This document shows positions 32,597 through 34,384 of a stretch of DNA of 64,000 nucleotides, in pieces (the first letter of the stretch is position 1; every line of letters starts with the position of its first letter). The notes beneath the pieces were generated by a model. It did no database searches. It was not told the origin of the DNA and saw only the letters and a list, made by a program, of their open reading frames with translations. This DNA comes from Pseudomonadota bacterium (GTDB taxonomy: Bacteria; Pseudomonadota; Alphaproteobacteria; Rickettsiales; UBA8987). Location of the stretch: contig JBEHXK010000001.1 of the NCBI GenBank assembly GCA_048498735.1, forward strand, positions 16,332 to 80,331. The letters are read 5' to 3'. A program made the translations under genes and the position numbers.

Positions 32597-34384
32597 ATGA
32601 AAAAGATAGGCGAACATCTAACAGAAAAAGGTTTAATTACAGAAGAAGCTGTTCGTCGTGCATTGGAAATCCAAAATAAAACCGGTTCAAAAATAGGCAG
32701 TATACTTCAGGCAGAAGGTATGGTCTCTACCTACCATTTTTATAAGGAATTGGCAAAATTCAAAGGGTTGGAATTCGTTGATCTGCAAAAATATGATTAC
32801 AATCAAAACCTGATGGTAAAAGATGAAAAGGACGAGTATCTCGAAATGCAATACTTGCCTTTTGATTATGATGGAAAAATCTATTATGTTGCCACTTCTT
32901 CGCCTTCAGAAGAGCTAATAAATTATCTCCATCGTAAATATGTGGATATAAAATTATATATTACTTCCCCCCTTGATATATTATGGACTCTTCAGAAGTG
33001 CTTCGATAAAGAATATATATATGATGCTGCGGAGTTGCTACATGAGCAAACGCCTTCATATTCCAGTAAATTTATTTTCTCAAACACTGCGGCAAAGCTT
33101 GTGCTGGCGGTATTGGTTTTTGCCTTTATTTACTTCTTAAAGAATAAAAATTTTCTTAACGTTTTTCTTGTGGTGATGAATATATTTTTCTTTTCATCGA
33201 TAGCATCAAAGTTGATATTTTTTATAAACGGTATCAAAAAGTCTAAAGAGTCGGATATTAAAGAAACTGATGATAGCACGTTACCAATTTATTCAATCTT
33301 AGTTCCTTTATTAAACGAAAAAAAGAAAACCATCGCTCACCTCATAGAAGCTTTGCAAAAGCTTAACTATCCTAAGGAAAAACTGGATATAAAATTTATT
33401 GTTGAGATAAGTGATTATAAGACAGAAGAATATATTAAAGATTTAAGGCCCAATTATAATCTGCAGATAATTAGAGTTCCTGATAACTACCCTAAAACAA
33501 AACCTAAAGCATGTAACTATGCACTGCATTTCTGTAAAGGGGAATATGTAACCATTTATGATGCGGAAGATAAGCCGGAACCTGATCAGTTAAGAAAGGT
33601 ATTGGCTAAATTTGCCGCTAACCCTGATTTGGCCTGTGTTCAAGCTAGGCTCAACTATTATAACCGTGAGGAAAATATTCTGACTAAATTATTTTCTATA
33701 GAATATTCAAGCTGGTTTGATTACATGCTATACGGTTTGCAAAAGCTTGATCTGCCTATACCTCTGGGCGGTACCAGCAATCATTTTAAAATAGCAACCT
33801 TACGTTCAATTTTGGCCTGGGATCCATATAATGTTACTGAAGATGCCGATCTAGGAATCAGGATGGCATTCAAAGGGATGAAAACTGAAATAGTTGATTC
33901 TCTGACCTTAGAAGAGGCGCCTATAAGTTTTTCAGCTTGGCTCAAGCAGAGAACCAGGTGGATTAAAGGATACCTGCAAACCTATATAGTTCATATGCGT
34001 TCTCCAATATCAATGCTAAGGCAACTTGGTATTAAAAAATATTTAGGTTTTTTTATTTTTATTGGCGCGCCAGGTATAATCTATTTTACAGTTCCTATTG
34101 TTACTTTGATTATATTATACTGCATTATTAACGATGTATATCTCTCTATGCCGCTAACATTGCTTTCATATTTTAATCTTGCGGCTACGATATTGGTTAA
34201 TCTTTATATTGCATGCCATGTAGTAAAAAATAATGGCTGGAAGAACATGATAAGGGCAACAGCACTTTTCCCATTTTATTGGGTATTACATTGTATAGCG
34301 AGTTTCTTTTCTATTTATCAGCTTATGGTAAAGCCGCACTACTGGAGCAAAACTGAGCATGGGCTTAGTAAATTCGTTCCTTAG
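32597..34384 (+). CDS. membrane-embedded processive family-2 glycosyltransferase with N-terminal MshEN/T2SSE_N-like domain
   Basis: N-terminal tandem motif KIGEHLTEKGLITEEAVRRALEIQ-NKTGS-KIGSILQAEGMVSTYHFYKELAKF; 2 TM; GT2 boxes SILVPLLNE, DAEDKPEPD, TEDADLGIR, QRTRWIKG; at least 4 C-terminal TM. Confidence 0.85.
   Translation: MKKIGEHLTEKGLITEEAVRRALEIQNKTGSKIGSILQAEGMVSTYHFYKELAKFKGLEFVDLQKYDYNQNLMVKDEKDEYLEMQYLPFDYDGKIYYVATSSPSEELINYLHRKYVDIKLYITSPLDILWTLQKCFDKEYIYDAAELLHEQTPSYSSKFIFSNTAAKLVLAVLVFAFIYFLKNKNFLNVFLVVMNIFFFSSIASKLIFFINGIKKSKESDIKETDDSTLPIYSILVPLLNEKKKTIAHLIEALQKLNYPKEKLDIKFIVEISDYKTEEYIKDLRPNYNLQIIRVPDNYPKTKPKACNYALHFCKGEYVTIYDAEDKPEPDQLRKVLAKFAANPDLACVQARLNYYNREENILTKLFSIEYSSWFDYMLYGLQKLDLPIPLGGTSNHFKIATLRSILAWDPYNVTEDADLGIRMAFKGMKTEIVDSLTLEEAPISFSAWLKQRTRWIKGYLQTYIVHMRSPISMLRQLGIKKYLGFFIFIGAPGIIYFTVPIVTLIILYCIINDVYLSMPLTLLSYFNLAATILVNLYIACHVVKNNGWKNMIRATALFPFYWVLHCIASFFSIYQLMVKPHYWSKTEHGLSKFVP

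What the first reader, a model, noticed from the sequence alone, without database searches (positions are those of the whole stretch)
32603..32761. Tandem MshEN-type c-di-GMP-binding motif at the N-terminus of a processive glycosyltransferase
Residues 3-55 read KIGEHLTEKGLITEEAVRRALEIQ | NKTGS | KIGSILQAEGMVSTYHFYKELAKF. This fits the published MshEN signature: two 24-residue motifs RLGxx(L/V/I)(L/V/I)xxG(L/V/I/F)(L/V/I)xxxxLxxxLxxQ joined by a 5-residue spacer. Copy 1 keeps positions 1 (K for R), 2, 3 (G), 6 (L), 10 (G), 11, 12, 17 (V), 21 (L) and 24 (Q). Copy 2 keeps 1, 2, 3, 6, 10, 11, 12, 17 (F) and 21. The spacer is exactly 5 residues. The rest of the protein is a BcsA/NodC-like synthase with the boxes VPLLNE, DAED, TED and QRTRW and 6 or more TM helices. 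This predicts a polysaccharide synthase gated by c-di-GMP through an MshEN fold rather than PilZ. I cannot tell from sequence alone whether this fusion has been functionally characterised.
Basis: partly seen in the sequence, partly recalled or inferred. Interest (0 to 1): 0.7.

Follow-up and report, generated by a model that had tools for sequence, protein, structure and literature searches.

The report
XagB-type sugar-polymer synthase with c-di-GMP sensor
The gene encodes a membrane sugar-polymer synthase of the widespread XagB family that carries a well-preserved MshEN-type c-di-GMP sensor domain at its front end; this domain combination is real but was already catalogued in 2016, so it is an ordinary new member of a known kind whose regulation by c-di-GMP has still not been tested.

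Summary
ORF 32597-34384 (+, 595 aa) starts with two 24-residue MshEN motifs (residues 3-26 and 32-55) joined by a 5-residue spacer. NCBIfam's MshE-related c-di-GMP-motif model hits residues 3-53 above its cut-off. Pfam MshEN hits residues 57-138. An AlphaFold model of residues 1-152 superposes best on the MshE:c-di-GMP crystal structure 5HTL. The rest is a membrane-embedded processive GT2 whose model resembles hyaluronan and cellulose synthases, with no PilZ domain.

It is not a new fusion. Wang et al. 2016 already list "MshEN - Glyco_trans_2_3" and align the N-terminal motif of Xanthomonas XCC0678. Full-length relatives occur in at least 596 species representatives from many phyla, including Xanthomonas, where XagB is needed for a biofilm polysaccharide. 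A profile search shows the upstream gene is xagA, here broken by two +1 frameshifts at G runs.

About a third of sampled family members have lost the binding motif. This protein keeps 11 of 12 key positions, so c-di-GMP activation is the best reading (about 0.6). It is untested for this domain order; only the reverse-order NfrB has been shown experimentally. Verdict: real feature, new member of a known kind, modest interest.

The parts
32597..34384 (+). xagB-like gene: MshEN - 2 TM - GT2 catalytic domain - C-terminal TM bundle, 595 aa
   Evidence: ORF. Pfam and NCBIfam hits. 38-39% identity over residues 4-592 to Xanthomonas XagB loci L015/L018. AF2 model pLDDT 95.4.
32603..32674 (+). MshEN motif I (residues 3-26: KIGEHLTEKGLITEEAVRRALEIQ)
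   Evidence: Conservation in 120 homologues: G at position 3 in 107, L at position 6 in 118, L at position 21 in 105, Q at position 24 in 107.
32675..32689 (+). 5-residue spacer (NKTGS)
   Evidence: the length matches the published 5-residue spacer (PMC5013675).
32690..32761 (+). MshEN motif II (residues 32-55: KIGSILQAEGMVSTYHFYKELAKF); position 24 is F, not Q
   Evidence: In the family, position 24 of motif II is H in 37, F in 29, Q in 29 and Y in 13 of 120, so a non-Q residue here is typical of the family.
32765..33046 (+). MshEN C-terminal alpha/beta subdomain (residues 57-150), ending in a long linker helix
   Evidence: Pfam PF05157 hits residues 57-138. Model secondary structure. Foldseek alignment to 5HTL covers 138 columns.
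33068..33226 (+). N-terminal pair of transmembrane helices (residues ~158-210)
   Evidence: Hydropathy scan; model helices 164-180 and 184-213.
33284..33994 (+). GT2 catalytic domain with VPLLNE (236), DAED (322), TED (414) and QRTRW (451) on the interface helix
   Evidence: Pfam PF13632, PF13641 and PF00535. Motif positions. Core motif residues invariant. Foldseek matches to HAS and BcsA.
34031..34330 (+). C-terminal transmembrane helices (residues ~479-578), the presumed glycan channel
   Evidence: Foldseek alignments to channel-forming synthases.
31696..32594 (+). xagA homologue (OMP-like partner, signal peptide, C-terminal ...SLWYLF) split into three reading frames
   Evidence: A profile HMM of the conserved ~276-aa neighbour family hits the three frames: 31696-31965 (E 1e-19), 31928-32338 (E 3.5e-18) and 32268-32591 (E 3e-12). 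The same HMM hits the ORF directly upstream of XagB in Xanthomonas (E 1.6e-54 and 1.1e-50). The gene is intact (266-298 aa, one of 218) in nine related loci.
31957..31960 (+). First +1 frameshift in xagA, at a GGGG run
   Evidence: Sequence compared with the intact L002 protein.
32317..32323 (+). Second +1 frameshift in xagA, at a G7 run, the only G or C homopolymer of 7 or more in the 64-kb window
50980..52062 (+). PAS-GGDEF protein (360 aa). The A-site is degenerate (DGGTF) and the RxxD I-site (RETD) is intact. It is the only c-di-GMP-related gene seen in the window, and a link to xagB is not shown.
   Evidence: Pfam GGDEF E 8e-36 plus PAS; sequence; alignment with an active GGDEF protein.

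Best explanation
The gene encodes a XagB-family, membrane-embedded processive family-2 glycosyltransferase. It builds a polysaccharide from a nucleotide sugar on the cytoplasmic face and threads it through its own transmembrane channel, as hyaluronan and cellulose synthases do. The polymer is probably beta-1,4-linked and possibly mannan-like.

Its N-terminal 150 residues are a complete MshEN domain: a four-helix bundle carrying the tandem 24-residue motifs, followed by an alpha/beta subdomain. A long helix links this domain to the first transmembrane helix.

The most likely mechanism is that one c-di-GMP molecule binds the four-helix bundle. Hydrophobic triads (I4/F48/L52 and I33/V19/L23) would stack on the guanines, the backbone amides at G5 and G34 would read the Hoogsteen edges, and Q26 would contact the ribose-phosphate. 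Binding would allosterically switch the synthase on. This is the role PilZ plays in BcsA and the C-terminal MshEN plays in NfrB.

In this lineage the system is reduced to xagA (outer-membrane partner) plus xagB, placed directly after the atp F0 genes. Here xagA is interrupted by two frameshifts, so export across the outer membrane may be off.

Shown: domain identity, fold, catalytic motifs, family membership, synteny and the xagA frameshifts. Inferred: ligand binding, activation, the identity of the polymer, and the consequence of the xagA frameshifts.
For: Domain identity:
- NF053729 hits residues 3-53 at 47.4 bits (cut-off 38).
- PF05157 hits residues 57-138.
- PDB sequence hits to the c-di-GMP-binding PilF GSPII-B and to MshE.
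- The N-terminal model (pLDDT 92.9) has 5HTL (MshE with c-di-GMP) as top Foldseek match (TM 0.74/0.80, rmsd 2.7 A), followed by the c-di-GMP-bound PilF GSPII-B structures.

Binding residues:
- 11 of 12 positions named as ligand-contacting by Wang et al. (positions 1, 2, 3, 17, 21, 24 of each motif) are compatible.
- K at position 1 occurs in PilF GSPII-B, which binds at 6 nM (PMC11731258).
- Q-to-E mutants at the position-24 residues of PilF still crystallised with c-di-GMP bound (9gl5 and 9glg, listed).
- Wang et al. cite an earlier study in which altering Arg9, Asp12 or Gln32 changed affinity by no more than about five-fold.

Selection on the motif:
- In 120 close homologues the key positions are conserved.
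- Across 69 diverse family members the score is bimodal: 43 members score 9-12 of 12 and 24 score 4-6 of 12. The query scores 11 and so falls in the retained class.

Synthase identity:
- The core residues of the catalytic boxes (E241, D322, D325, E415, Q451, R452, R454, W455) are invariant.
- The full-length model (pLDDT 95.4, pTM 0.93) matches HAS, BcsA and chitin synthase.

Family and context:
- Full-length relatives in Xanthomonas (L015, L018) with xagA directly upstream.
- Elsewhere the gene clusters with BcsB-like, XagC-like and GH113/GH5 genes.
- xag genes are needed for Xanthomonas biofilm and are induced at high c-di-GMP; a beta-1,4-mannanase disperses that biofilm (PMC3528676; PMC3609779).

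Precedent: NfrB (GT2-MshEN) binds c-di-GMP and needs the motif for function (PMC8669469).
Against: [quoted passage not shown]
- Small deviations can abolish binding in MshEN domains, as in PilF GSPII-A and XpsE.
- This protein has polar residues at the core position 7 of both motifs (T9, Q38) and F instead of Q at position 24 of motif II.
- The Pfam MshEN score is only 0.1 bit above its cut-off.
- About a third of sampled family members have lost the motif, so the family can work without it.
- No active diguanylate cyclase is visible in the 64-kb window. The one GGDEF protein has a degenerate A-site.
- The xagA partner is frameshifted, so the system may be inactive in this organism.
- The identity of the polymer rests only on neighbouring hydrolase families in other genomes and on the Xanthomonas ManA phenotype.
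Confidence: 0.62

Rival explanations
1. The MshEN domain is structurally intact but no longer binds c-di-GMP. It serves instead as a protein-interaction or scaffolding module, for example docking a partner such as the single-domain response regulator encoded next to xagB in relatives, or mediating oligomerisation. Non-binding MshEN/GSPII domains do this in XpsE, in Xanthomonas PilB (which binds PilZ) and in PilF GSPII-A.
For: - Non-binding MshEN domains with the same fold exist (PMC5013675; PMC12002112). Foldseek also matches the Xanthomonas PilB N-terminal domain:PilZ complex and XpsE.
- The query fails the published relaxed regular expression at three positions.
- 24 of 69 family members have clearly degenerate motifs yet keep the domain, so the domain has a role independent of the ligand.
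- A 122-aa REC gene follows xagB in L002 and L004.
Against: - The query keeps 11 of 12 ligand-contact positions and both glycines. It clusters with the conserved class rather than the degenerate class.
- NF053729, a model built specifically for the binding motif, scores above its cut-off.
- The deviations seen (K at position 1, non-Q at position 24) are tolerated in proven binders.
- The REC gene is absent from this window.
Confidence: 0.25
2. The locus is a decaying remnant. With xagA disrupted and no xagC, xagD or bcsB-like genes, xagB is no longer part of a working secretion system in this reduced genome. The motif is then a relic rather than a working switch.
For: - There are two +1 frameshifts in xagA, and they are present in two assemblies that differ by 1 base in 17.5 kb.
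- None of the other roughly 26 window ORFs scanned was split.
- No XagC, XagD or BcsB-like homologue is in the window.
Against: - xagB itself is full length with every catalytic residue intact.
- The xagA fragments have no in-frame stops other than those created by the shifts, and they keep 38-58% identity to the intact relative. The disruption is therefore recent, reversible, or a homopolymer sequencing error.
- The two-gene atp-xagA-xagB layout is conserved in nine related alphaproteobacterial loci, so the minimal system appears functional in the clade.
Confidence: 0.12
3. The tandem motif is a chance resemblance in an amphipathic helical N-terminus.
For: The motifs are short and degenerate, and rich in L, I, V and G. 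The sequence does not match the published regular expression exactly.
Against: - HMM E-value of 1.2e-12 above the curated cut-off.
- Independent fold match to 5HTL over 138 columns.
- Column-by-column conservation in 120 homologues.
Confidence: 0.01

Closest known systems
XagB of Xanthomonas (xagABCD biofilm polysaccharide cluster); XCC0678 is aligned in Wang et al. 2016
   Same: - Same architecture over the full length: 38-39% identity over residues 4-592.
- Same N-terminal MshEN motif, down to the ...FY...F.GL.FVDL tail.
- Same upstream partner XagA.
   Different: - This window lacks the xagC and xagD (GH113) homologues found in Xanthomonas.
- xagA is frameshifted here.
- The host is a low-GC (38%) alphaproteobacterial MAG whose closest named relatives are labelled Rickettsiales.
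- c-di-GMP control of Xanthomonas xag is documented only at the transcriptional level, through Clp. I inferred that XCC0678 is XagB from its sequence and did not check the locus tag.
'MshEN - Glyco_trans_2_3' architecture (Rhodobacter sphaeroides Rsph17029_0522), Wang et al. 2016, Supplementary Table 4
   Same: Identical domain order. The paper lists it as occurring in Actinobacteria, Firmicutes and Proteobacteria.
   Different: - The Rhodobacter representative has a visibly degraded second motif, whereas the window protein keeps it.
- No member of this architecture was among the proteins measured by ITC.
NfrB of E. coli (GT2 - 2 TM - MshEN), a c-di-GMP-activated exopolysaccharide synthase
   Same: - A processive GT2 with DxD/TED/QxxRW coupled to an MshEN domain.
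- An outer-membrane partner is encoded alongside (NfrA).
- The MshEN regions align: the NfrB model matches residues 3-150 (E 4e-6).
- Binding and dependence on the motif have been shown experimentally.
   Different: - The domain order is reversed (MshEN is C-terminal).
- The GT parts are not close: the NfrB equivalog model scores 25 bits against a cut-off of 1170 and covers only the MshEN part.
- The outer-membrane partner is different (TPR-barrel NfrA versus the small XagA).
- The two fusions therefore look independent.
BcsA cellulose synthase (GT2 - PilZ)
   Same: - Membrane-integrated processive GT2 with a channel.
- Structural match.
- Relatives of the window gene sit next to BcsB-like and glycoside-hydrolase genes.
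- c-di-GMP acts as a post-translational activator.
   Different: - There is no PilZ domain; the sensor is N-terminal MshEN.
- The CelA/BcsA equivalog models score far below their cut-offs (67 against 699 bits; 59 against 992 bits).
MshE / PilB / PilF GSPII-B traffic-ATPase N-domains
   Same: Same fold and same tandem motif.
   Different: The output domain is a glycosyltransferase, not a T2SSE ATPase.

Membership tests
MshEN domain (c-di-GMP receptor, Wang et al. 2016) | [quoted passage not shown] | tested here: met
   Residues 3-26 and 32-55 with spacer 27-31. NF053729 scores 47.4 bits against a cut-off of 38. Deviations: T9 and Q38 at position 7, F55 at position 24 of motif II, K for R at both position 1, I for L at both position 2. 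The strict and relaxed regular expressions are not matched.
MshEN domain (c-di-GMP receptor, Wang et al. 2016) | Four-helix bundle (MshEN_N) followed by an alpha/beta subdomain (MshEN_C) | tested here: met
   The model has helices 4-10, 16-29, 33-39 and 45-55, then a beta/alpha unit from 57 to 135. The Foldseek top hit is 5HTL with TM 0.74/0.80. Pfam PF05157 hits residues 57-138 at 23.2 bits against a cut-off of 23.1.
MshEN domain (c-di-GMP receptor, Wang et al. 2016) | Specific high-affinity binding of c-di-GMP | not testable with these tools
   This needs DRaCALA, ITC or MST. The sequence proxy is 11 of 12 contact positions compatible.
Processive membrane-integrated GT2 synthases (BcsA / HAS / chitin synthase type) | D, DxD, TED and QxxRW catalytic signatures | tested here: met
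   VPLLNE at 236, DAED at 322, TED at 414, QRTRW at 451. Their core residues are invariant in 120 homologues.
Processive membrane-integrated GT2 synthases (BcsA / HAS / chitin synthase type) | Catalytic domain packed on a transmembrane bundle that forms a glycan channel | tested here: met
   The full-length model (pTM 0.93) aligns over 430-470 columns with HAS and BcsA structures (E 1e-13 to 1e-15).
Processive membrane-integrated GT2 synthases (BcsA / HAS / chitin synthase type) | Polymerising activity and identity of the product | not testable with these tools
   The only evidence is contextual: GH113 or GH5 genes in related clusters and ManA dispersal of Xanthomonas biofilm.
XagB family (Xanthomonas xag cluster) | Full-length homology to Xanthomonas XagB | tested here: met
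   tblastn gives 38-39% identity over residues 4-592 to L015 and L018. JGI names close homologues 'glycosyltransferase XagB'.
XagB family (Xanthomonas xag cluster) | Encoded directly downstream of xagA | tested here: met
   The profile HMM of the neighbour family hits the Xanthomonas ORF upstream of XagB (E 1e-54) and the window region 31696-32591 in three frames. The window copy is frameshifted.
XagB family (Xanthomonas xag cluster) | Accompanied by xagC (polytopic membrane protein) and xagD (GH113) | tested here: not met
   There is no tblastn hit in the window for the XagC-like, GH113 or BcsB-like queries. The same absence is seen in nine related alphaproteobacterial loci. This is a reduced two-gene version.
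NfrB (cyclic di-GMP-activated glycosyltransferase) | GT2 at the N-terminus and MshEN at the C-terminus; passes the equivalog model | tested here: not met
   The domain order is reversed. NF008411 scores 25.4 bits against a cut-off of 1170 and aligns only to residues 3-150.
BcsA cellulose synthase | C-terminal PilZ domain; passes the CelA/BcsA equivalog models | tested here: not met
   No PilZ hit. TIGR03030 scores 67.5 against 699 bits and NF008558 scores 58.7 against 992 bits.

The most novel reading that the evidence does not exclude
In this reduced, Rickettsiales-like alphaproteobacterial lineage, a minimal two-gene xagA-xagB system placed behind the atp F0 genes is the main or only c-di-GMP effector. 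MshEN gates polymer synthesis post-translationally. The outer-membrane partner xagA is switched on and off by slippage at a G7 tract, the only long G/C homopolymer in 64 kb. Surface display of the glycan would then be under both second-messenger and phase-variable control.
Probability: 0.1. Interest if true: 0.5.

Novelty: new member of a known kind. Interest (0 to 1): 0.3.

Why it matters
If c-di-GMP really gates XagB-type synthases through the N-terminal MshEN domain, this would supply the post-translational receptor that Roelofs et al. 2015 predicted for the xag system. It would also add a third solved answer to how c-di-GMP turns on a synthase, beside PilZ in BcsA and the C-terminal MshEN in NfrB.

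The family is very widespread. [quoted passage not shown] A single biochemical test on any well-preserved member would therefore have broad reach.

The split found here between motif-retaining and motif-degenerate lineages offers natural controls for such a test. For this particular window the finding is an annotation-level result, not a discovery.

Tried and rejected
- **Published motif as a regular expression.** The query does not match the relaxed Wang et al. motif, and only 3 of 120 homologues match it in tandem. I rejected it as a test because it is too strict at core positions 7 and 24, and used HMM and fold evidence instead.
- **Regex search for GG[DE]EF, HD-GYP and EAL in all six frames.** This found nothing and missed the PAS-GGDEF gene, which a Pfam scan later found. 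Its A-site is DGGTF, so it cannot count as evidence for c-di-GMP synthesis.
- **REC-containing neighbours of xagB in other genomes.** The ~340-aa ones have only a weak, highly degenerate GGDEF-like domain with neither GGDEF nor RxxD. I rejected them as local cyclases.
- **Rfam scan of the window for c-di-GMP riboswitches.** None was found; the only hit was a Mn2+ riboswitch.
- **Exact-sequence look-ups to name the organism.** These gave only the assembly accession GCA_048498495.1 and no taxon name. The GTDB scan gave no close match (best 46% identity), so the taxonomy is inferred from the neighbours' labels.
- **Promoter and terminator scan of 29400-35200.** The counts were no better than in shuffled sequence, so operon structure was not resolved.
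- **Phase variation.** I looked for conserved poly-G tracts in xagA of nine related loci and found none, so phase variation remains speculative.
- **XagA and XagC families.** Pfam, NCBIfam and PDB sequence searches all found nothing.
- **Inter-domain contacts in the full-length model.** These could not be examined because model coordinates are not exposed.
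Full report
**1. The observation**

The window carries an ORF at 32597-34384 on the + strand, 595 aa. Its first 63 residues read MKKIGEHLTEKGLITEEAVRRALEIQNKTGSKIGSILQAEGMVSTYHFYKELAKFKGLEFVDL.

Numbered against the published 24-residue motif, the layout is:
- Motif I is K3-Q26.
- The spacer is N27-S31, five residues.
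- Motif II is K32-F55.

Three deviations were not mentioned. Position 7 is polar in both copies (T9, Q38). Position 24 of the second copy is F55, not Q. For this reason the sequence fails the relaxed regular expression that Wang et al. used for census work.

**2. Is it more than chance?**

Yes, on four independent lines of evidence.
- NCBIfam NF053729, a 53-position model of exactly this c-di-GMP-binding unit, matches residues 3-53 end to end. The score is 47.4 bits against a cut-off of 38, with E 1.2e-12.
- Pfam MshEN (PF05157) matches the following alpha/beta subdomain at residues 57-138, although only at 23.2 bits against a cut-off of 23.1.
- phmmer against PDB sequences finds the c-di-GMP-binding GSPII-B domain of Thermus PilF and V. 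cholerae MshE (5HTL) over residues 2-69.
- An AlphaFold2 model of residues 1-152, built on 117 sequences, has pLDDT 92.9. It shows four helices (4-10, 16-29, 33-39, 45-55) followed by a beta/alpha unit. Its best Foldseek match in the PDB is 5HTL, the MshE N-domain with c-di-GMP (TM 0.74/0.80, rmsd 2.7 A, 138 columns). Seven c-di-GMP-bound PilF GSPII-B entries follow.

**3. The rest of the protein**

GT2 models cover residues 232-516. The boxes VPLLNE (236), DAED (322), TED (414) and QRTRW (451) are present. Their core residues (E241, D322, D325, E415, Q451, R452, R454, W455) are invariant in 120 homologues.

The full-length model is very confident (pLDDT 95.4, pTM 0.93). It aligns over 430-470 columns with hyaluronan synthases, BcsA and chitin synthases. 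These are all synthases that polymerise and translocate through their own membrane channel. No PilZ domain is detected.

Hydropathy gives two N-terminal and at least two strong C-terminal membrane segments. The model shows five to six long helices in the membrane region, so "6 or more TM" is approximately right but not exactly.

**4. What family is it?**

The protein has thousands of relatives. The best 120 are all about 600 aa and align end to end at 37-59% identity. Those that carry a taxon label are mostly alphaproteobacterial or Rickettsiales metagenome-assembled genomes. JGI names several of them "glycosyltransferase XagB".

A scan of one genome per GTDB species found at least 596 species with a full-length relative. 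In 74 of the best 80, the match begins at query residue 8 or earlier. The taxa include Xanthomonas, Mariprofundus, Mucilaginibacter, Pedobacter, Paenibacillus, Actinomycetota, Chloroflexota, cyanobacteria, Thermotogae and Aquificota.

I clustered the neighbours of these 80 loci and ran Pfam on representatives. The recurrent cluster is:
- a BcsB-like protein;
- the glycosyltransferase;
- a polytopic membrane protein with no Pfam family;
- a GH113 or GH5 hydrolase;
- a ~276-aa protein with a signal peptide and a beta-barrel-like C-terminus.

A profile HMM of that last family hits the ORF immediately upstream of XagB in two Xanthomonas genomes (E 1.6e-54 and 1.1e-50). That family is therefore XagA. 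By position and homology the polytopic protein is XagC and the GH113 protein is XagD. This agrees with Kato et al. 2015 (PMC4643136).

**5. The local context in the window**

The same XagA profile hits the window just upstream of xagB, but in three different reading frames: 31696-31965, 31928-32338 and 32268-32591.

Comparison with the intact 293-aa protein of the closest relative (L002, 58% identical XagB, fully syntenic) shows two +1 insertions. One is in a GGGG run at 31957-31960. The other is in a G7 run at 32317-32323.

Several observations bear on whether this is real:
- The G7 run is the only G or C homopolymer of 7 or more in the whole 64-kb window.
- Both frameshifts are present in a second assembly that differs by one base in 17.5 kb.
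- None of the roughly 26 other window ORFs I scanned was split.
- Nine related alphaproteobacterial loci have the same compact layout, atp F0 genes then xagA then xagB, with an intact xagA and no xagC, xagD or bcsB-like gene.

The window therefore holds the reduced two-gene form of the system, with xagA interrupted. I cannot distinguish a recent pseudogene, a slippage-prone switch and a homopolymer sequencing error. Relatives have no conserved G tract at this site.

**6. Does the organism use c-di-GMP?**

The only related gene in the window is a PAS-GGDEF protein at 50980-52062. Its A-site reads DGGTF instead of GGDEF, while an RxxD I-site (RETD) sits five residues upstream. It is probably not a cyclase but could bind c-di-GMP.

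No c-di-GMP riboswitch was found.

**7. How likely is c-di-GMP binding?**

Wang et al. identify positions 1, 2, 3, 17, 21 and 24 of each motif as ligand contacts. Positions 6, 7, 11 and 12 form the core of the bundle and position 10 is the turn glycine. On the 12 contact positions the query has K-I-G-V-L-Q and K-I-G-F-L-F.

These deviations are tolerated in proven binders:
- Lysine at position 1 occurs in PilF GSPII-B, which binds at 6 nM.
- Hydrophobic swaps preserve the stacking surface.
- Loss of the second glutamine is the one real deviation. Wang et al. cite an earlier study in which altering Arg9, Asp12 or Gln32 changed affinity by no more than about five-fold. PilF Q190E and Q218E mutants were still crystallised with the ligand.
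- Within the family, position 24 of motif II is H, F, Q or Y.

The most informative test was comparative. I scored the 12 positions in 69 phylogenetically diverse family members, and the distribution is bimodal. Forty-three members score 9-12. Twenty-four score 4-6; these are Mucilaginibacter, Pedobacter, Sphingomonadales and some Actinomycetota, with N-termini such as SIPEIL... or WTGDYL.... The query scores 11.

The motif is thus dispensable for the family yet actively maintained in the query's lineage. That is what one expects of a working ligand site.

Against this, PilF GSPII-A shows that small deviations combined with local structure can abolish binding. Nobody has measured binding for this domain order.

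**8. Comparison with what is known**

- The architecture "MshEN - Glyco_trans_2_3" is listed in Supplementary Table 4 of Wang et al. 2016, with Rhodobacter sphaeroides Rsph17029_0522 as its representative.
- The same paper aligns the N-terminal motif of Xanthomonas XCC0678. Its sequence, LLGRSLVSAGVITDEQLRAALALQ-QRWNS-RLGDLVLA..FY......FGLQFVDL, is clearly the same family as the query.
- None of these glycosyltransferases was among the proteins whose affinity was measured.
- Roelofs et al. 2015 had predicted that xagABC should encode a post-translational c-di-GMP receptor.
- In Xanthomonas the xag genes are required for a biofilm polysaccharide. They are derepressed when c-di-GMP releases Clp, and a beta-1,4-mannanase disperses the biofilm. 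Together with the GH113 neighbour this hints at a beta-mannan-like product.
- The only experimentally proven MshEN-controlled synthase is E. coli NfrB, which has the opposite domain order. The NfrB equivalog model aligns only to the MshEN part of the query (25 bits against 1170). The two fusions therefore look independent.
- Searches for MshEN, T2SSE_N and xag terms found no paper that tests an N-terminal MshEN glycosyltransferase.

**9. Verdict**

The object is a new member of a known and very widespread kind: XagB-type, MshEN-GT2. It is not a new fusion. The mechanism I commit to is c-di-GMP-dependent allosteric activation through the N-terminal four-helix bundle, at about 0.6 confidence. 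The main rival is a ligand-blind scaffolding role for the domain, at about 0.25.

The local peculiarities are the reduction to xagA-xagB behind the atp genes, the frameshifted xagA and the degenerate PAS-GGDEF gene 16.6 kb away. They are worth recording but do not change the classification. Interest is modest (0.3). The value lies mainly in pointing to an untested, broadly distributed c-di-GMP effector class, for which the motif-retaining and motif-degenerate lineages provide ready-made controls.

Noticed in passing
window 31696-32594 (+); frameshift sites 31957-31960 and 32317-32323: The xagA homologue directly upstream of xagB is split into three frames by two +1 insertions in G runs. The G7 run is the only G/C homopolymer of 7 or more in the 64-kb window. 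The only other run of 6 or more, a C6 at 32967-32972, lies inside xagB. This could be a pseudogene, phase variation or a homopolymer sequencing error.
   Followed up: partly
window 50980-52062 (+): A PAS-GGDEF protein (360 aa) whose A-site is DGGTF rather than GGDEF, with an intact RxxD (RETD) five residues upstream. It is probably non-catalytic and may be an I-site c-di-GMP binder. It is the only c-di-GMP-related gene found in the window.
   Followed up: partly
L002 9861-10229; L004 9873-10241: A 122-aa single-domain response regulator (REC) is encoded immediately downstream of xagB in the two nearest sampled relatives. It is absent from the window, where the SpoU methylase gene follows directly.
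   Followed up: partly
L024 9272-10282; L033 9277-10329; L035 9235-10260; L059 9223-10254; L070 9432-10421: In several alphaproteobacterial xag clusters, a ~340-aa REC protein follows XagC. Its C-terminal domain is GGDEF-like but very degenerate (24-33 bits, with neither a GGDEF nor an RxxD motif). Its function is unknown and it is not a plausible cyclase.
   Followed up: partly
L046, L048, L060, L061 and other Mucilaginibacter/Pedobacter loci; L024, L033, L043, L045 (Sphingomonadales/Novosphingobium loci): The XagB family is split. About a third of sampled members keep the MshEN fold region but have lost the c-di-GMP contact residues (4-6 of 12). The rest keep 9-12 of 12. These are useful natural controls.
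   Followed up: yes
window 17696-17857 (+): A manganese (yybP-ykoY) riboswitch, 59.5 bits against a gathering score of 45. It overlaps the start of the ORF listed at 17781-18416.
   Followed up: no
window 44203-45432 (+): A 409-aa protein with a strong match to Pfam MATCAP (PF08014, the microtubule-associated tyrosine carboxypeptidase family; E 2.6e-100) in a bacterial genome.
   Followed up: no
window 29686-31775 (+) and 31696-34384 (+): xagA-xagB sits directly after the atpB-E-F'-F (F0) genes, and xagA overlaps the end of the last atp gene by about 80 nt. No terminator-like site lies in between. The same arrangement is seen in nine related loci, which suggests possible co-transcription with the ATP synthase F0 genes.
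   Followed up: partly
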